From a virus (taxonomy: Duplodnaviria; Caudoviricetes), in IMG/VR virus record IMGVR_UViG_3300011577_000001: a stretch of 64,000 nucleotides of DNA; one strand, written 5' to 3'. The notes below the pieces were generated by a model. It saw only the letters and a program-made list of their open reading frames with translations, was not told the origin of the DNA and did not search any database. Positions 2,545 to 29,236 of this stretch are shown in pieces. Position 1 is the stretch's first letter, and each line of letters opens with the position of its first letter. The translations under genes were made by a program, and so were the position numbers.

Positions 2545-3678
2545 TTAGATGGCGGGGCTGTTGCCCAGTTGGTAAGCCTTCAGGATCTCGGCTACGTCTG
2601 GACCTTTGCCTTTGTTGGAGACAGCCAGTTCTTTCACCGACATCTCGGTTGGGATGGCAATCGAGCGGTGGTAGAAGGTGACGTGTTCCCACTCAGGATC
2701 GACCACGCAGAGGATCATGCAGTAGGTCTCACGGAAGAGCTTCTCACGAACGCGGAAGTCCTTCAGACGACCACCGACTTGGCGCTCAACGTCCTTCACT
2801 GCTTGCGAGGACATCACGATGATGTTCGAAGCGGTAGCAACAGAAGGTTGGCCCGAGAAGATGGCGGAGATGCTGTTACCCTTACGACGCTTACGCAGCT
2901 CGTCGTACAGACCGGTTGGATCTTTGGCCAGGGTTTTCTTGTGAGCGTCGATCAGGTCTTGGCACAGCAGCAGGTCGCGAACGAACTCCAGTTGGCCAGC
3001 ACGCCAAGCGTGGAAGCGTTCCTTGACGGAGATGTTCTTGCTGCCGACGCTTAAGATATGAACCAGCTCCTTGGTCCCGATGCCGCTGCAAATGAGGCGA
3101 ACGTTGATCGGGAAGGTAGCTTTGTTGCCCTCGGACTCGATGTTGACTTCCAGCATCTTGCCGACAGACAGGTTGGTCAGCTCACCCAGCATCGAGACAG
3201 TGTCACGACCGTTGGTGAGGGTTGGCGGATTGCCTTCCGGGATCGGATCGTCGATGTCTTCCAGGCTCACGTTGAGCTTTTGCAGACCATCACGACCACC
3301 AGGAACCGGCAGAGCAAAACGATACGAACGCGCATCTTCCAGGCTAACCACGGTGGCGACACCGTTGGAGACGCCGTTGATCAGGTTGTCGGTGGCGTTA
3401 CGCTTGGGGTTCAGCTTGTCCAACAGGCGGATGACATCCACGCTACCAACGTTTACCGACAGCGCGATCGCTTGCAGGTAATAGCCACTGAACAGCGAGG
3501 TCAGGGACTGCATGATGTCGTTGGCATAGGGCAGACGAATGAGCGACTCGTCCATCAGGACGATCGGCTCCACGCGAGTCGGCTGAGTGTATTCGATCAG
3601 CGAACCCGACTTCGCGGCCCGCATCGTGTCCGTCAATTTACTGGCCAGGTTAAGGCCAGTCACAATGTCATTCATCAT
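2545..3678 (-). CDS. Virion head protein (phiKZ gp89-like)
   Basis: 377 aa with two VSLED processing sites; synteny. Confidence 0.65.
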   Translation of the reverse strand: MMNDIVTGLNLASKLTDTMRAAKSGSLIEYTQPTRVEPIVLMDESLIRLPYANDIMQSLTSLFSGYYLQAIALSVNVGSVDVIRLLDKLNPKRNATDNLINGVSNGVATVVSLEDARSYRFALPVPGGRDGLQKLNVSLEDIDDPIPEGNPPTLTNGRDTVSMLGELTNLSVGKMLEVNIESEGNKATFPINVRLICSGIGTKELVHILSVGSKNISVKERFHAWRAGQLEFVRDLLLCQDLIDAHKKTLAKDPTGLYDELRKRRKGNSISAIFSGQPSVATASNIIVMSSQAVKDVERQVGGRLKDFRVREKLFRETYCMILCVVDPEWEHVTFYHRSIAIPTEMSVKELAVSNKGKGPDVAEILKAYQLGNSPAI

Positions 3679-3704
3679 TACTGATAATCCCTCGAAGGTG
3701 ACTA

Positions 3705-4835
3705 ATGGCTAAAACTATTAAAGATGTGTTGAGCATCATTCAAAAGGCAGGTGGGCTAGGTGATCTTTCGCAGGCCGCGATCAATAACCTTAAAGGCATC
3801 AACCACCGAGGTTTCGGAAACCCGTTACCAGTCAACAAAGATAACCAGGGCTTGACGTTCTTCACACGCCCTAACCTGAACTTATCATACGATAATATTG
3901 CAGCTAAGCGTATTCTGACCCCATTGCTCGATGGGGATGGTCCGGCGATGAACACGTATCAGCGTGCGATCCGTATGACACTCGATCCATACCTCGGTGA
4001 TCCGGCGATGTTTAAGCTGGGTGACCCGCGTCGTGGGGCACAGATGATGACTTGTGATCTGATCGATCAGAAGCAAGCCTTCATTCCAATCCTCACGAAC
4101 TGCCTCATTTCCCTAGGTGGTTGGCCTGACCTTTCGGTAGAGACTTTCCGCTCGACTCCCGGTAACTATGGTGAGTCATGGGCGATGGTGGACTCCAGCT
4201 CTCGCTTCTACGAAGTGTACGAGTTGAACGGTGCATTCAAAAGTCTTGAGGGTGATCCGATCTCCACGATCTTCTCGACTTGGCTACACTATATGTCGGG
4301 GGTTTACGAGGGGTCCATGGTCCCTTATCCGAATAACCTCGTGGAACGACGTATTGACTACCAGACGCGTATCTACCGTTTACTGTTAGACTCCAGTCGT
4401 CGATACGTTCAAAAGATCGCTGCTTGTGGTGCCGCCTTCCCTGTGAACTCACCACTGGGTAACTCGTTCAACTTCACGAACGAGGGTGTCTACAACCAAG
4501 ACAACGACCAGATCCAGATCCGCTTCGTAGCAATGGGTGCTGACTACAACGACCCTATCACCATTCAAGAGTTCAACGCCGTAGTACAGATCTTCAACCC
4601 GGAGATGAAAGGTGACGATAATGATCGTTCCCGCTACTACCGCAAGCTCGATGGTATCGATGAGATGAAAGCCTACAACTATAATGGCTATCCTCGAATC
4701 GATCCTGAGTCGATGGAACTGACCTGGTGGGTACCGATTGACAATTCCTCGGTAAGCGTTGCTGTTGCAACTCCTTCTGCGGGTGTGGACCTTTCCCCAA
4801 TCACTGATCTTCTTAAGGGCACTTCGACCTCATGA
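3705..4835 (+). CDS. Virion structural protein (phiKZ gp88-like)
   Basis: 376 aa, divergent from the head operon, ATGA-coupled to the next gene; synteny. Confidence 0.6.
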   Translation: MAKTIKDVLSIIQKAGGLGDLSQAAINNLKGINHRGFGNPLPVNKDNQGLTFFTRPNLNLSYDNIAAKRILTPLLDGDGPAMNTYQRAIRMTLDPYLGDPAMFKLGDPRRGAQMMTCDLIDQKQAFIPILTNCLISLGGWPDLSVETFRSTPGNYGESWAMVDSSSRFYEVYELNGAFKSLEGDPISTIFSTWLHYMSGVYEGSMVPYPNNLVERRIDYQTRIYRLLLDSSRRYVQKIAACGAAFPVNSPLGNSFNFTNEGVYNQDNDQIQIRFVAMGADYNDPITIQEFNAVVQIFNPEMKGDDNDRSRYYRKLDGIDEMKAYNYNGYPRIDPESMELTWWVPIDNSSVSVAVATPSAGVDLSPITDLLKGTSTS

Positions 4836-24741: not shown

Positions 24742-25596
24742 ATGACTATTGATGAACTTGAGGTCTACCTCGATCAGCGCATCTCACCCGAGGCGACCGA
24801 GTCACTGGTTGACTGTGCTCGCGTGATGTGCGAATCCGGTTTGGTCACTCACTTAGATGACATCGAAGACATCATTGCCGTTGAGGACGGTGTGGGTCGT
24901 GATGCTACCATGGCCAAAATCCGCAACTATTTGGAAGACGCACTCGAAGCTTGCGTCAACCAGTTCGGTGTTACCCTGCAACAAGGGATTGACATCAACC
25001 TGCGTCACTTAGTTGCTTTGCAACGCGGGATCAACCAGATCACCAACTTCGAGGACATCGAGACCATCGAAGCGTACTGTCTGTCCGAAGAAGATCCTGA
25101 ACAACGTCTGGCTGACATGTTGGAGTTGCTCACTGAATACACGTGGGCCGACTACTTACTGTTTGTACAAGAAGTCAGTCCATCACTGTTCAAGCGCATC
25201 CTTGAAGAGATCACCAAGCCGGACGAACTCGAAGAGATCGACAACTCGGACAACGCAATTCTGCTGCGCACCAAATCGTTACTGCTCAAGGTTGAGAAGC
25301 CTTGGCTGATCGATGAGATCGAAGACGGGGCTACGCTGGGTCTGCCTCTGGAAGCGCTGATCATTCGTTTCCGTGCTCGTTACGAAGCAGCACTTGCTCA
25401 AACTATGGATTGGAACCGTAAGCCTCAACTGTTGGCTGAACAGTACCTTCTGTATGTGCTCGCCTCGAACGTTCCAGACGACAAGTTGCTGGAAGCTGCA
25501 CAGACCCAGGCCGAAGACGTGATCCATCACATGCCAACCTTGTCGGCTGTGTTGCGTCATTGCCAACAACTCTTAAGTCAGGTGCCCACTAAATGA
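24742..25596 (+). CDS. Conserved acidic protein (phiKZ gp79-like)
   Basis: 284 aa, overlapping the start of the vRNAP gene; synteny. Confidence 0.6.
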   Translation: MTIDELEVYLDQRISPEATESLVDCARVMCESGLVTHLDDIEDIIAVEDGVGRDATMAKIRNYLEDALEACVNQFGVTLQQGIDINLRHLVALQRGINQITNFEDIETIEAYCLSEEDPEQRLADMLELLTEYTWADYLLFVQEVSPSLFKRILEEITKPDELEEIDNSDNAILLRTKSLLLKVEKPWLIDEIEDGATLGLPLEALIIRFRARYEAALAQTMDWNRKPQLLAEQYLLYVLASNVPDDKLLEAAQTQAEDVIHHMPTLSAVLRHCQQLLSQVPTK

Positions 25597-26906
25597 AAGT
25601 CGCCGATTACTACTTGGCCGCCTTGAATGCTGGCGCCTATAAAAAGAAGATCTGGGTACTGAGTCTGTTCAGCCTTTTGGTTGACCCAAAGGAATATCGG
25701 TTCCCGTACGAGATCGTGAAGACCGACAAGAATGTGTTCTTCCGTAACCCTGATGACTTAGATGACCTCGTGTTACTGGACGACGCTCCGATTGATCGTC
25801 CGGTCCTGACCTTCAAGGACAAGCTCCAAATCACCCCTGATCGGGTTCCTAACCTGGCTGCGCCGATCACGACCACAGCGGGTAACTTGCTGTTTAACTT
25901 CTACGTCCTGATCTACTCGATGGGCAAGAAGATTCCATACTTGGAAGGGCGTCTGACGCCTAAGGGTGTGGAGGCGTTGATCCAGCCTCGTCTGACGTCG
26001 AACCCTGTGAACAATGGGGAGAACTACGACCCGAACGATCTGAACCCGATCTACGTTTCAGAGTACAAGAAGTTCAACCGTGCAATGTTTGCACTGATGG
26101 GCTTCACACAGCTCTGTGTGCCGTCTGCTACGCCTCGGACGATGTCGACTGACCCTCGTATCCCTGAGATCCGAAACAAGCTGGTAGAGAAGTACAAGGA
26201 CCGTCTGAACGACCCAGCCGTGATCTCGATGATCGATGCTGAGTTGATCAAGATCGACAAAGAGTGGATGAAGAACGACCCCGATGGCGGTGCTGGCTTC
26301 TACGTGAACGAGAACAAGTCTTACGACGTTGTGCGTAAGAAAGTGTTCCTGATGCACGGTGCAGAAGCAGGCTTCCAAGAAGGTACGGATGTTGACTTCA
26401 TCAAGAACTCCCTGAACGAAGGTTGGGAGATCGAGAAGCTACCGAGCATGGTGAACTCCTTGCGTGAGGGTTCGTATAACCGTGGTCGAGACACAGCACT
26501 CGGTGGTGAAGCGGTGAAGTTCCTGGGTCGTGTTTTCCAGAACACGGTGATTGCAGAGAAGGACTGTGGGTCTACTCTGGGCTGGGACAAGGAAGTTACC
26601 GAGGACAACTACAAGGATTATGCTGGCTTCTATGAGAACACCCCAAAGGGCCCTGTCCTCTTAGAAGAAGCTTACCTCAAGGGTAAGATCGGTAAAACTA
26701 TCAACATGAGAACACCCATGTTGTGTAGGACTCCGAAAACCGGCTTCTGCGAATGCTGTATGGGCGCAAAGAACGCCCTGAACCCAACCTCGCTGGGTTT
26801 GCTGGCGGCAGACGTAGGTTCCCAGATGATGGGCATTTTCATGGGTGCCATGCATGGCAAATCACTTAAGACTGCGCCCTATAACTTCAAGAAGATGATC
26901 TTTTAA
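25593..26906 (+). CDS. Virion RNA polymerase beta' fragment (phiKZ gp80-like)
   Basis: Bridge-helix-like REGSYNRGRDTALGG, EKDCGS, Zn site RTPMLC..GFCECCMG. Confidence 0.85.
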   Translation: MKVADYYLAALNAGAYKKKIWVLSLFSLLVDPKEYRFPYEIVKTDKNVFFRNPDDLDDLVLLDDAPIDRPVLTFKDKLQITPDRVPNLAAPITTTAGNLLFNFYVLIYSMGKKIPYLEGRLTPKGVEALIQPRLTSNPVNNGENYDPNDLNPIYVSEYKKFNRAMFALMGFTQLCVPSATPRTMSTDPRIPEIRNKLVEKYKDRLNDPAVISMIDAELIKIDKEWMKNDPDGGAGFYVNENKSYDVVRKKVFLMHGAEAGFQEGTDVDFIKNSLNEGWEIEKLPSMVNSLREGSYNRGRDTALGGEAVKFLGRVFQNTVIAEKDCGSTLGWDKEVTEDNYKDYAGFYENTPKGPVLLEEAYLKGKIGKTINMRTPMLCRTPKTGFCECCMGAKNALNPTSLGLLAADVGSQMMGIFMGAMHGKSLKTAPYNFKKMIF

Positions 26907-26946
26907 TTCCACGCATGCCTTATCATATAACACTTTGACGTGAGTT

Positions 26947-27558
26947 GTGATGATGGCTAGGAAGAATAAGGTGTGCGGGTTCTATAAGCTCCTGCACAAA
27001 CCTTCTGGTAAGTTTTACCTCGGTAGTAGTGCAGATGTTCTTGGACGACTGGCTCACCATAAGTGGGCGCTCAGGAAAGATCAGAATGCGTGTAGGAAGC
27101 TCCAAGAGGCTTTCAACACTCATCCCGACCTAGATCAACTGGATATCCTGATTCATCCCTGTAAGACTCGAGAAGAAGCTTACGACATGGAACAATCCTG
27201 GGTGGATCGTTTTTGGGATCATCCTGACTGCTTAAATAGTAGTCGAGATGTTCGTAGTCCAATCACAGAGCAGATGCACAAACCCGAGGTTAATGATAAG
27301 CGCAAACAGACTTGGGCTAAACGAGCTGAAAGCGAAGAGTTCCGTCAGGCTATGGGTAAGTACTCAGAATCTAGATGGAAGAGCCCAGGTGCCCGTGAAG
27401 CTTTCTCTGGTGCTAATAACCCGTTTGCCAAAGGCATCAAGATCGACGGGACCGAATATGGTTCTGTTAAAGATGCTGTCAGAGCCACGGGGGTTAGTGA
27501 AAAGACTATTCGCAAAAGGGCTAACCTAGAGTCGTTCCTTAACTACTCTTGGACTTAA
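26947..27558 (+). CDS. GIY-YIG homing endonuclease
   Basis: GFYKL..FYLGSS..R..HH catalytic module; C-terminal IDGTEYGSVKDAVRATGVSEKTIRKR HTH. Confidence 0.9.
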   Translation: MMMARKNKVCGFYKLLHKPSGKFYLGSSADVLGRLAHHKWALRKDQNACRKLQEAFNTHPDLDQLDILIHPCKTREEAYDMEQSWVDRFWDHPDCLNSSRDVRSPITEQMHKPEVNDKRKQTWAKRAESEEFRQAMGKYSESRWKSPGAREAFSGANNPFAKGIKIDGTEYGSVKDAVRATGVSEKTIRKRANLESFLNYSWT

Positions 27559-27604
27559 GTCCTTGAAGACCGCCAAGTACGATTTCAAGAAGATGATTTT
27601 CTAA
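27557..27604 (+). pseudogene. Orphaned 3' end of the vRNAP gene
   Basis: 15 codons plus stop, 13/15 identical to the in-use C-terminus, no start codon or RBS at its 5' end. Confidence 0.75.
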
Positions 27605-27651
27605 AGTCTATCTTCTGAAGCAGTTCATTCTCAATACGGAGACAGTCCCAA

Positions 27652-28566
27652 ATGGGCAAGCAAAACAACACCACCCAAACTCAAACTCAACAGCAGGGTG
27701 AACAGGATGTTCAGGACCAGGACAAGTTGGCTACTATTGGCGCTATCGACGACGCTGAGCAAGACAGCGAAGCCTCTGGCGATTCGAGCGGCGAACAGAG
27801 CGACGGCCAGGGCGGCACCGATTCCGAAGGCTCCGAGGGTGATGGGTCGTCCGATGCGGGCTCGGACGCAGAAGCGCTGGCAGCGCTCGAGGCGCTGACC
27901 GCTGCTGGTCTGGCTGGCGGTGAAACCGGTGCTGATCAAGGTGAAGGTGGTGATGAAGGCGAGGCCGCTGATGAAGACCCCATCAACGATGCTCCCGCTG
28001 TAGTCGACGCCCCGGCTCAAGGCGACCTGCCTTCCGTGGCTGACGCCCCGAACGATACCCCAGTGGCCATCCAACACGCACGTGCGCCGTCGGTGACCCT
28101 GACCCCAGTCGCTGTTACCAAAGAAGAGATCAAAGTGCAGCAGAACAACCTCACCCTGACCATCCTGGCCAACCAGCTCGCTGAATACGCCAAAACCATG
28201 CACCCGTCGCAGCCGATGACCGCTACCATCGGTAAGACCCAGCAGACCATCTTGTGGCGCACCATCGACGCCATCCTGAAGCTGGAAGGTGCCGAGTTCA
28301 TCAAGGGCTACACCATGCTGCTGGCCTTCGTGAACGAGAACCGCGACGGTGCTCTGAACGAGCGTTACATCTACCGTTACTTCGCGGATCTCACCATGCC
28401 GAACAACGACCGCAAGAACTTCAACCGCATCCTGAACCTGCTGTCGGCGACTGCTGATCCGGCCACCCGTCGTCTGGGTCTGGAACAAGCTGACCTGGCT
28501 GCTTCCCTGGCTGGCTTCCGCGACGGCGCCATCCAACAGCGTGTGACCGAGTTCTACTCGCTGTAA
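27652..28566 (+). CDS. Hypothetical protein with long acidic disordered N-terminus
   Basis: 304 aa; Q/D/E/G/S-rich first half; SD GGAG; strongly biased codons. Confidence 0.8.
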   Translation: MGKQNNTTQTQTQQQGEQDVQDQDKLATIGAIDDAEQDSEASGDSSGEQSDGQGGTDSEGSEGDGSSDAGSDAEALAALEALTAAGLAGGETGADQGEGGDEGEAADEDPINDAPAVVDAPAQGDLPSVADAPNDTPVAIQHARAPSVTLTPVAVTKEEIKVQQNNLTLTILANQLAEYAKTMHPSQPMTATIGKTQQTILWRTIDAILKLEGAEFIKGYTMLLAFVNENRDGALNERYIYRYFADLTMPNNDRKNFNRILNLLSATADPATRRLGLEQADLAASLAGFRDGAIQQRVTEFYSL

Positions 28567-28580
28567 GGCGGCATAGAAGC

Positions 28581-28620
28581 AAAAAAAAAAGAGCCCTGGG
28601 AAACCGGGGCTCTTTATGCC
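28581..28620. terminator. Bidirectional terminator
   Basis: A10-GAGCCCTGG-GAAA-CCGGGGCTC-TTTATGCC. Confidence 0.8.
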
Positions 28621-28624
28621 GCAC

Positions 28625-29236
28625 TCAATGTACGGTGTAGTCATGGTTGATGTGTTTGGACACTTGCTTGGTACGTTCACAGATAACCTTCGTTTGTGCA
28701 ACGGAGGCATTCATGAAGTGGAGCACGCGACCGATCATATCGACCGAGACTTCTTCACGGAAGCAACCTTCCATGTTGGCAAACAGTGTAACAAGGTAGT
28801 CGTCGATCACCGAGAACATCCTTAATGGATTAGTCTCGGGGCGAATGTGTTGCAGATACATCGTGATGCGGAACTGGTCATACGCTTCGGCTAAGAAGAA
28901 CCCAGCGAAGAGTAAGCCCATGTGACGAACGAACCCCATAACCCAGGCAGGACCCATCAGGTGCCACGCAAAGTTAAAACCGTGCAGGACTTGAAGACGC
29001 AGGGTCTGATCGTTCAGTTCATGACCCACCCAAGAGAAGTGGTAGGCGCTGTCTGGTATCGCATAACGAGTAGACAACATGTATCGCAAATACGGCTGTT
29101 CCAACAACTGAATCATCAGGTGTCGTAAATCAGGAGGGCACCGAGGGTCGGAGAAGAACGCGTCGGGTGCCAAGTTGAAAAGCTGTTCAGCACGATGTTT
29201 GGGCATCTCACCGAAGATTACTGCCGATTGTTCCAT
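28625..29236 (-). CDS. Hypothetical protein
   Basis: ATG 29236 preceded by GAGGAG. Confidence 0.65.
   Translation of the reverse strand: MEQSAVIFGEMPKHRAEQLFNLAPDAFFSDPRCPPDLRHLMIQLLEQPYLRYMLSTRYAIPDSAYHFSWVGHELNDQTLRLQVLHGFNFAWHLMGPAWVMGFVRHMGLLFAGFFLAEAYDQFRITMYLQHIRPETNPLRMFSVIDDYLVTLFANMEGCFREEVSVDMIGRVLHFMNASVAQTKVICERTKQVSKHINHDYTVH

What the first reader, a model, noticed from the sequence alone, without database searches (positions are those of the whole stretch)
26859..27604. Homing endonuclease cassette that supplies a recoded replacement C-terminus to the virion RNAP gene
Seen: the last 15 codons occur twice around the GIY-YIG gene. In use: AAA TCA CTT AAG ACT GCG CCC TAT AAC TTC AAG AAG ATG ATC TTT TAA. 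Orphan: AAG TCC TTG AAG ACC GCC AAG TAC GAT TTC AAG AAG ATG ATT TTC TAA, overlapping the endonuclease stop. Most differences are synonymous, and the orphan has the GC3-rich codons of core genes. Inference: intron-less insertion inside an essential gene, repaired by a cleavage-resistant new end; the target site spans ..CATGGC/AAGTCC.. It could be a weapon against co-infecting relatives.
Basis: partly seen in the sequence, partly recalled or inferred. Interest (0 to 1): 0.7.

Follow-up and report, generated by a model that had tools for sequence, protein, structure and literature searches.

The report
Homing endonuclease replaces RNA-polymerase gene end
A selfish DNA-cutting enzyme gene sits inside the end of a giant phage's virion RNA polymerase gene and keeps that gene whole by bringing a foreign substitute for its last 15 codons, leaving the original end stranded behind it; the trick is known from yeast and fungal mitochondria, and I found no published phage example.

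Summary
The last 15 codons plus stop of the 437-aa gene 25593..26906 occur twice, at 26859..26906 (in use) and 27557..27604 (orphan). They flank an intact I-TevI-like GIY-YIG gene (26953..27558). The host gene is the ortholog of phiKZ gp80, a virion RNA polymerase beta' piece.

- **The in-use end is foreign.** It differs from the orphan at 14 of 48 nt. An APYN-type end occurs naturally in a relative that is 76% identical.
- **The layout recurs.** Replacement end, endonuclease and orphan are found at the same MHG|K codons in two distant metagenomic phages (L010, L011). L011 has a near-identical empty-site partner (L093). The same nuclease family lies directly downstream of this gene, without an orphan, in 7 of 80 IMG/VR loci and in phages PhiPA3, Moabite and Totoro.
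- **The site is conserved.** The junction follows an invariant histidine, inferred to be the trigger-loop His.
- **No intron.** The cassette holds only 46 non-coding nt.

The mechanism matches yeast WHO elements and fungal mitochondrial mORF gene hybrids. Cleavage, resistance of the new end and a role in phage competition are untested. This scan has noted the same layout in other phages.

The parts
25593..26906 (+). Host gene: a virion RNA polymerase beta' C-terminal piece, ortholog of phiKZ gp80. It is a chimera of a resident body and an imported end.
   Evidence: PHROG 2962 'RNA polymerase beta subunit', E 2e-142. Synteny gp79-gp80-gp81 in PA7 and PhiPA3. vRNAP = gp178, gp149, gp180, gp80 (PMC8287921). 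A profile of the family matches beta' from the bridge helix to region G and phiKZ gp74.
26837..26858 (+). Short co-converted tract upstream of the junction. It may start at 26795. It covers the codons for I-F-M-G-A-M-H-G, including invariant His421.
   Evidence: Four window-private synonymous changes (ATT, GCC, CAT, GGC against ATC, GCG, CAC, GGT in all three relatives) fall in the last 22 nt, out of 28 such changes in 1266 nt (P = 0.0013). H421 is invariant in 21 diverse orthologs.
26859..26906 (+). Imported replacement end in use: KSLKTAPYNFKKMIF plus stop.
   Evidence: It differs from the orphan at 14 of 48 nt and from cassette-free relatives at 10-14 of 36 nt. An APYN-type end is natural in P0011. 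The exact protein was seen on 2 contigs from 2 sources (P0132).
26917..26957 (+). Hairpin in the 46-nt spacer. Its 3' arm contains the endonuclease start codons (ATGATG, 26950..26955). Probably limits translation of the endonuclease on read-through transcripts (inferred).
   Evidence: Minimum free energy -16.3 kcal/mol, z = -2.7. Stronger hairpins sit at the same position in L010 (z -5.4), L022 (z -5.1) and L025 (z -6.9), but not in L011.
26953..27558 (+). Free-standing I-TevI-like GIY-YIG homing endonuclease gene (201 aa; the start may be 26950).
   Evidence: Pfam GIY-YIG, E 1e-4. Y11, Y22, R32, H36, E80 and N95 are invariant across 11 homologs, and the C-terminus is natural. The I-TevI DNA-binding domain (PF20987) is found in homologs; the window protein gives only a weak NUMOD1 match. 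GC3 is 0.46 against 0.68 for the host gene.
27557..27604 (+). Orphan: the displaced resident-type gene end (KSLKTAKYDFKKMIF plus stop). It has no start codon and lies out of frame with the host gene. It probably also serves as the right-hand homology arm of the element.
   Evidence: It differs from L001-L003 at 4-7 of 36 nt. Its translation is the working end of relative P0135. Cassette-free contigs join 26854/8 to 27556/7.
27605..27618 (+). Third, oldest remnant of the gene end: (A)AG TCT ATC TTC TGA = KSIF*, the native end of the nearest relatives. The window carries 14 extra nt (27593..27606) compared with them.
   Evidence: Alignment to L001-L003. Contigs in X1 and X2 lack 14 nt at 27590. 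P0133 and P0139 end KKSIF.
27652..28566 (+). Next gene, gp81-like (virion structural). It is the right-hand resident flank.
   Evidence: PHROG matches. The gene order matches PA7 and PhiPA3. The intergenic sequence is shared with L001 and L002.

Best explanation
This is a terminus-replacing homing element. The mobile unit has three parts: a foreign copy of the last 15 codons of the vRNAP beta' gene, a 46-nt hairpin spacer, and an I-TevI-like GIY-YIG endonuclease gene.

Inferred steps: in a mixed infection the enzyme cuts the cassette-free allele at or near the codons for the invariant Met-His-Gly-Lys motif, inferred to be the trigger loop. The break is repaired from the cassette-bearing genome. 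The left end recombines in the gene body, only about 20-65 nt upstream of the junction. The right end resolves at the break, or within the downstream repeat of the gene end.

Shown: the recipient ends up with its own gene body fused in frame to the donor's end, followed by the endonuclease gene and then its own former end as an untranslated orphan.

Inferred: the silent differences of the imported end protect the new allele from re-cutting. The orphan is the homology arm for the next round. Repeated invasions stack old ends; the KSIF* remnant would be one such layer.
For: - **Filled and empty alleles.** L001 and L002 (87-95% nt identity across the junction), L003, P0133 (1 of 422 body residues differs) and contigs in two runs (X1, X2) lack 26859..27556 precisely and read MHG-KSLKTAKYDFKK.
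- **Resident versus foreign end.** The orphan is close to the relatives and the in-use end is not. An APYN end is natural in P0011.
- **Differences concentrate in the end.** Against P0133, 1 of 422 body residues differs but 3 of 15 in the end. Against P0138 it is 1 of 422 and 4 of 15 (P = 1e-4 to 4e-6).
- **Co-conversion tract upstream**.
- **Independent repeats of the layout.** L010: the gene body is 99% identical to P0062, whose own end equals the L010 orphan, while the in-use end is foreign. L011: the empty partner L093 is about 100% identical in the flanks. The 11 changed codons, 10 of them silent, are confined to about 60 nt at the junction. The orphan is a chimera of in-use-type 5' sequence and native-type 3' sequence.
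- **Same left boundary without an orphan.** In L022 and L025 the heterology also starts right after MHGK.
- **Family habit.** Homologous endonuclease genes lie directly downstream of this gene in 7 of 80 IMG/VR loci and in PhiPA3, Moabite and Totoro.
- **The endonuclease looks intact and foreign.** Catalytic residues are conserved and the composition differs from the host gene.
- **Tested precedent.** WHO elements at yeast FBA1 work by the same mechanism, shown experimentally (PMC7282813). Mitochondrial mORF hybrids have the same layout (PMC3630166).
Against: - No cleavage, homing or expression data exist for this enzyme. No RNA run was available.
- The cut site is inferred only from where heterology starts and where the orphans begin. 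That point varies: codon 0 in the window, -1 in L010, -4 in L011.
- Most family members at this locus have no orphan. The orphan may therefore be an accident of repair rather than a working part.
- The 14-nt KMIF*/KSIF* layer has no endonuclease of its own. It could have another origin.
- The cassette status of P0011, the candidate source lineage of the APYN end, is unknown.
Confidence: 0.85

Rival explanations
1. This is an ordinary free-standing intergenic endonuclease gene. Its home is the gap downstream of the gp80-like gene, and the gene's end is swapped merely by co-conversion. The orphan and the KSIF* remnant are functionless scars of imprecise repair (end joining at the break), not parts of the element.
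For: Most family members at this locus have no orphan: L022, L025, L070, L071, L088, L090, L076, PhiPA3 and Moabite. In L022 and L025 the replaced tract runs cleanly to the next gene's start.
Against: Three independent orphans start within 4 codons of each other, immediately after the endonuclease stop. The L011 orphan is a recombinant of donor-type and native-type sequence, so recombination has resolved inside it. In WHO elements the downstream fragment is the recombination site. This rival differs from the main reading only on whether the orphan is used.
Confidence: 0.3
2. The insert is a self-splicing intron (or another spliced or bypassed element), so the mature message joins MHG to the downstream 'orphan'. 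The upstream copy would then be irrelevant.
For: Endonucleases in phage genes are often intron-borne. PhiPA3 has an intron endonuclease aimed at another vRNAP gene.
Against: Rfam finds no intron at E <= 1 in 25000..29000. Outside the endonuclease ORF only 46 nt of non-coding sequence and the 48-nt in-frame end are available, too little for a ribozyme core. The upstream copy is an intact, in-frame end of a natural type. The same holds in L010 and L011.
Confidence: 0.02
3. The duplication is an assembly chimera of two co-occurring strains, or a local tandem duplication unrelated to the endonuclease.
For: The window comes from a metagenomic assembly in which related strains coexist. Cassette-free relatives were seen in other runs.
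Against: The exact chimeric protein and the exact endonuclease were each found on 2 contigs from different sources. The same layout occurs in unrelated assemblies (L010, L011). The contig in run X3 follows the in-use end and then carries a different insert of about 680 nt. The 698-nt unit holds a complete foreign gene.
Confidence: 0.02

Closest known systems
WHO homing elements at the yeast aldolase gene FBA1 (Coughlan et al. 2020, eLife, PMC7282813)
   Same: The functional unit is an endonuclease gene plus the upstream, resistance-conferring 3' end of the target gene. The displaced old 3' end lies downstream as an untranslated fragment that serves as the recombination site. Repeated homing pushes old ends rightwards and makes the 3' end evolve discordantly from the 5' part. 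Here the counterparts are the in-use end, the orphan, the KSIF* remnant, and the excess of differences in the last 15 codons.
   Different: WHO proteins are intein-like LAGLIDADG/zinc-finger enzymes acting in meiosis of a eukaryote, and they replace about 400 bp. This element is an I-TevI-like GIY-YIG enzyme in a lytic jumbo phage, and it replaces only 45 coding nt. Cleavage and allele specificity were shown for WHO6 and not for this enzyme.
Mobile endonuclease ORFs (mORFs) that make gene hybrids in fungal mitochondria: Allomyces macrogynus atp6; Glomus atp6, atp9, cox2, nad3 (PMC3630166 and Paquin et al. 1994 cited there)
   Same: An inserted foreign C-terminal in frame, then an endonuclease ORF (GIY-YIG in Glomus atp9), then the native C*-terminal. 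The native copy is far closer to relatives (91-98%) than the inserted copy (64-81%). Here the figures are about 81-89% against 61-72%.
   Different: Those are organelle genomes, and some of their endonuclease ORFs are fused in frame to the host gene. Here the host is a phage, the endonuclease ORF is separate, and it lies behind a hairpin spacer.
Intronless homing by free-standing T4 Seg/Mob endonucleases (SegF; Belle et al. 2002, cited in PMC12908238; SegB, PMC2330249)
   Same: A free-standing GIY-YIG gene next to a conserved gene. Presence or absence varies among relatives. Flanking markers are co-converted, with localised marker exclusion.
   Different: As far as I know, T4 seg genes sit between complete genes and are not described with a duplicated, displaced gene end. 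That rests on my own knowledge plus searches, which found no phage report.
PhiPA3 intron endonuclease acting on the phiKZ vRNAP gene (Birkholz et al. 2024, Science; summarised in PMC12908238)
   Same: A selfish nuclease in a nucleus-forming jumbo phage whose target is a virion RNA polymerase gene. It is proposed as a weapon in co-infection.
   Different: That enzyme is carried in a group I intron and nicks its target; from my own knowledge it is an HNH-type enzyme and the target is a different subunit, the gp178 ortholog. This one is free-standing, GIY-YIG, at the gp80 ortholog, and keeps the gene intact by end replacement rather than splicing.

Membership tests
GIY-YIG (I-TevI-like) homing endonuclease | GIY-YIG catalytic domain with the conserved Tyr, Tyr, Arg, His, Glu and Asn residues | tested here: met
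   PF01541, 22.8 bits against a cut-off of 22.6. Y11, Y22, R32, H36, E80 and N95 are invariant in 11 homologs. From memory, their spacing equals that of I-TevI Y6, Y17, R27, E75 and N90.
GIY-YIG (I-TevI-like) homing endonuclease | Separate C-terminal DNA-binding module (helix-turn-helix, NUMOD type) | tested here: inconclusive
   The window protein gives only NUMOD1 at E 0.08. Homologs P0122, L010 and L011 pass PF20987 (I-TevI_DNA-bd), and that region is the best-conserved part of the family.
GIY-YIG (I-TevI-like) homing endonuclease | Presence/absence polymorphism at one site among close relatives, with co-conversion of flanks | tested here: met
   Empty sites: L001-L003, P0133, X1, X2, and L093 for L011. 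Co-converted tracts.
GIY-YIG (I-TevI-like) homing endonuclease | Site-specific cleavage of the empty allele and over-transmission in crosses | not testable with these tools
   This needs the enzyme and phage isolates.
Terminus-replacing homing elements (WHO / mitochondrial mORF gene hybrids) | The imported end is in frame and completes the target gene. The native end is displaced downstream of the endonuclease gene. | tested here: met
   The same is seen in L010 and L011.
Terminus-replacing homing elements (WHO / mitochondrial mORF gene hybrids) | The displaced end matches relatives' native ends, and the imported end is of foreign origin. | tested here: met
Terminus-replacing homing elements (WHO / mitochondrial mORF gene hybrids) | The imported end confers resistance to the element's own nuclease. 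| not testable with these tools
   Indirect support only. Silent changes flank the MHG codons in the window. In L011 both copies carry them, while the near-identical empty L093 does not.
Group I intron with an internal endonuclease ORF | Ribozyme core flanking the ORF, with exon ligation | tested here: not met
   No Rfam match at E <= 1. Only 46 nt are non-coding, and an in-frame stop ends a complete protein.

The most novel reading that the evidence does not exclude
A lineage of I-TevI-like endonucleases has specialised on the trigger-loop histidine codons of the virion RNA polymerase beta' gene across several clades of nucleus-forming jumbo phages. It moves as a self-contained, WHO-like 'splice-free intron': replacement end, hairpin-gated nuclease gene, and homology repeat. 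Inside a shared phage nucleus it would break the vRNAP gene of cassette-free co-infecting relatives. It would thus be both a gene-conversion drive and an interference weapon, and stacked remnants would record serial invasions.
Probability: 0.35. Interest if true: 0.65.

Novelty: new member of a known kind. Interest (0 to 1): 0.5.

Why it matters
It shows that the end-replacement strategy works in viruses, and at one of the most conserved sites of a multisubunit RNA polymerase. That strategy lets a selfish nuclease enter a coding sequence without an intron or intein, and it has been proven only for yeast WHO elements and described for fungal mitochondria.

It supplies clean filled and empty allele pairs (window against L001/P0133; L011 against L093). 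These make the target site and the resistance changes directly testable.

It adds a second route by which jumbo phages could attack each other's virion polymerase genes, alongside the PhiPA3 intron endonuclease.

For annotation, it explains short orphan gene ends and the mosaic, fast-evolving last 15 codons of gp80-like genes.

Tried and rejected
I could not fetch the contigs of the closest endonuclease homologs (P0122-P0125, P0142) or of P0135, P0138, P0136 and P0011. Their adjacency to the polymerase gene rests only on matching contig lengths.
- IMG/VR scans with the endonuclease alone or as an alignment found nothing. The genome-contig scan found nothing. P0127 against the phage collection gave only distant hits.
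- Rfam found no intron or other RNA family in the cassette.
- No RNA holder was listed among the sequencing runs, so there is no evidence on expression or splicing.
- The run X3 contig carries a different insert of about 680 nt after the same in-use end, but its sequence cannot be retrieved.
- A PDB sequence search with the last 68 aa alone gave nothing. The trigger-loop assignment rests on colinear extrapolation from the profile match and on the published phiKZ gp74 helix positions.
- The sigma-70 promoter and terminator scan gave nothing useful in the cassette.
- I considered a 14-nt slippage duplication as the source of KMIF*/KSIF*. I rejected it as sole cause because 5 of 14 positions differ in a background that is 90-97% identical.
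- Assembly artefact was rejected (see rival explanations).
- No orphan was found in PhiPA3, Moabite, Totoro, FLC4-5C or the IMG/VR loci that carry the endonuclease.
Full report
**1. Observation**

The sequence is as described. ORF 25593..26906 (437 aa) ends ...GCC ATG CAT GGC | AAA TCA CTT AAG ACT GCG CCC TAT AAC TTC AAG AAG ATG ATC TTT TAA. After a 46-nt spacer comes ORF 26953..27558. Its TAA overlaps the first codon of a second copy of the same 15 codons plus stop (27557..27604).

The copies differ at 14 of 48 nt but at only 2 of 15 residues. Deleting 26859..27556 (698 nt) joins MHG in frame to the second copy. A local tblastn finds the second copy at E = 2e-6. GC3 is 0.87 in the orphan, 0.60 in the in-use end, 0.68 in the gene body and 0.46 in the inserted gene.

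**2. The genes**

The window lies in a 240-kb IMG/VR record of a phiKZ-like jumbo phage.

- The 437-aa protein matches PHROG 2962 ('RNA polymerase beta subunit') end to end. It is 36-42% identical to the corresponding protein of about 300 jumbo phages.
- In PA7 and PhiPA3 the ortholog lies between the gp79-like and gp81-like genes, and PhiPA3 annotates it as similar to phiKZ gp080. gp80 is one of the four known virion RNAP polypeptides (PMC8287921).
- A family profile aligns to bacterial beta' from the bridge helix into region G, and to the non-virion paralog phiKZ gp74.
- The four Zn-binding cysteines and His421 (the H of MHG) are invariant in 21 diverse orthologs.
- In gp74 the first trigger helix directly follows the last Zn cysteine by about 12-30 residues. 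On that basis His421 is most likely the trigger-loop histidine. This is an inference from colinearity, not an alignment that reaches the residue.

The inserted ORF is a GIY-YIG nuclease. All catalytic residues are conserved across its homologs and its C-terminus is natural. The family carries the I-TevI-type DNA-binding domain.

**3. Empty sites**

Three IMG/VR relatives have no insert (96, 95 and 83% protein identity; L001-L003). They read ATG CAC GGT AAG TCY TTG AAG ACC GCN AAR TAC GAC ..., that is MHG-KSLKTAKYDFKK-SIF*, followed by the same intergenic sequence as the window.

With the cassette removed, the window aligns to L001 at 87-95% identity straight across the junction. Contigs 95-99% alike in two public runs skip 26854 to 27556. 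Protein P0133, from a 242-kb contig, differs from the window protein at one body residue and three end residues, and ends AKYDFKKSIF.

**4. Which copy is foreign**

Over the first 36 nt the orphan differs from L001-L003 at 4-7 positions. The in-use end differs at 10-14.

The orphan's exact translation (AKYDFKKMIF) is the working end of relative P0135. An APYN-type end (KSLKTAPYNFKEAIF) is the end of P0011, a 76%-identical relative. The new end is thus a natural allele from a more distant lineage, not a local recoding.

Window-private synonymous changes cluster just upstream of the junction: 4 in the last 22 nt out of 28 in the 1266-nt body (P = 0.0013). The imported tract therefore starts at about 26837, possibly 26795.

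Among sister genomes the last 15 codons carry far more differences than the 422-codon body. WHO elements leave the same signature on FBA1.

**5. The layout recurs**

A metagenome scan with the nuclease family found two distant loci, about 38% nuclease identity and 42-48% polymerase identity. Both have the same architecture.

- **L010.** The gene ends MHGKSLSLAKYEISEIM*. Then comes the nuclease. Immediately after its TAA follows GGT AAG AGT ... = GKSLSLAKFDLESAIN*. The gene body is 99% identical to P0062, whose own end is exactly that orphan.
- **L011.** The in-use end and the orphan both begin at GCG ATG CAT GGA AAG. Its IMG/VR partner L093 has no cassette and is essentially 100% identical in the flanks. 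All differences lie in about 60 nt at the junction: native AGC GCC ATG CAT GGC AAA ... GCG CCT TTC GTC ATT GAG GAG CAC CTC ACT against in-use TCA GCG ATG CAT GGA AAG ... GCT CCA TTT GTG ATT GAT GAG CAC CTG ACA. Eleven codons are changed, ten of them silently.
- **The L011 orphan is a chimera.** Its 5' part is of the in-use type and its 3' part of the native type. Recombination has therefore resolved inside the repeat, and both copies carry the variant sequence at the MHGK codons.

In a survey of 80 gp80-like loci from IMG/VR, family members lie directly downstream of the gene in six loci on the same strand and in one convergently. An eighth locus has one 1.9 kb away. PhiPA3 gp078 and the Moabite and Totoro nucleases occupy the same position. 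None of these has an orphan.

In L022 and L025, however, heterology with nuclease-free clade mates again begins right after the MHG-K codons. It runs through the stop, spacer and nuclease gene to the next gene's start.

Five independent cases thus share the left boundary, which places the initiating event at these codons. Sister genomes of the window (P0138, P0136) have yet another end (TSRYD) and probably another nuclease (P0125, P0142; 58% identity), judged from shared contig lengths only. A contig in run X3 follows the window through the in-use end, then has about 680 different letters before rejoining at the KSIF* remnant.

**6. The third remnant**

Right after the orphan's TAA the window reads AG TCT ATC TTC TGA (27605..27618). 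That is the native KSIF* end of the nearest relatives, which lack 14 nt here.

The locus therefore holds three generations of the gene end:

- APYN...MIF* (in use);
- AKYD...MIF* (orphan, a working allele in P0135);
- SIF* (oldest).

This matches the stacking predicted for repeated end replacement. The nuclease of the older layer is absent, so this part stays an inference.

**7. Mechanism**

Shown:

- the architecture;
- filled and empty alleles;
- the foreign origin of the in-use end;
- short co-conversion tracts;
- recurrence at one site;
- an intact nuclease gene of foreign composition.

Inferred:

- the enzyme cuts the empty allele near the MHGK codons;
- repair copies the donor's end and the nuclease gene;
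- the right side resolves at the break or within the orphan repeat;
- the silent changes protect the new allele.

Hairpins occupy the spacer and engage the nuclease start region in the window, L010, L022 and L025 (z from -2.7 to -6.9), but not in L011. This resembles the RBS-sequestering control known for T4 homing endonucleases (my own knowledge). It would limit nuclease synthesis on read-through polymerase transcripts.

A spliced intron is excluded for practical purposes (only 46 nt of non-coding sequence). An assembly artefact is excluded by independent contigs and independent loci.

**8. Comparison and novelty**

The mechanism is that of WHO elements at yeast FBA1 (PMC7282813). The anatomy is that of fungal mitochondrial mORF gene hybrids (PMC3630166).

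Four full-text searches found no phage description. The nearest jumbo-phage precedent is the PhiPA3 intron endonuclease that nicks the phiKZ vRNAP gene.

Notes of this scan report the same end-replacement layout in several other phages, one of them at an RNAP gene of a giant phage. I did not check those notes. One of them led me to the WHO paper, which I read.

I class this as a new member of a known kind. It is solidly documented at the sequence level and untested at the bench.

Noticed in passing
window 26904..26965; L010:458-520; L022:3794-3875; L025:3794-3882: Strong hairpins fill the spacer between the replaced gene end and the endonuclease start, and overlap or abut the start codon (z from -2.7 to -6.9). 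L011 has none. This may be translational gating, as for T4 homing endonucleases.
   Followed up: partly
L007 (PhiPA3) 3398..4591: PhiPA3 gp078 looks like three tandem GIY-YIG-like modules: SFYMVCAT..., KLIIGTTQD..., HFYIGSSGH.... Only the last matches the window's enzyme over its full length. It lies directly downstream of the gp80 ortholog gp077, with no orphan.
   Followed up: partly
G000:C1:793-1581 (- strand; outside the window; locus L005): The same phage genome holds a second GIY-YIG homing endonuclease gene (PHROG 314, E 6e-26). It lies between a phrog_3841 gene and a virion structural protein gene and overlaps the start of the latter. No duplicated gene end was obvious.
   Followed up: partly
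L012 (Ralstonia phage FLC4-5C) 2501..3274: A homolog of the endonuclease lies directly downstream of a different RNA polymerase beta' gene (659 aa, gp224). The family may be associated with polymerase genes more generally.
   Followed up: no
window 27700..28000 and 28600..29200: The acidic, low-complexity N-terminal part of the gp81-like gene and the region 28600..29200 drop to 53-70% identity with relatives that are otherwise 87-97% identical. These are local hypervariable or replaced segments.
   Followed up: no
window 26300..27732 versus a 15.3-kb contig of run X3: A wastewater contig shares the window's in-use gene end up to 26893, then carries about 680 unrelated letters, and rejoins exactly at the KSIF* remnant (27604). 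It is probably a sister cassette with a different endonuclease and no long orphan. Its sequence could not be retrieved.
   Followed up: partly
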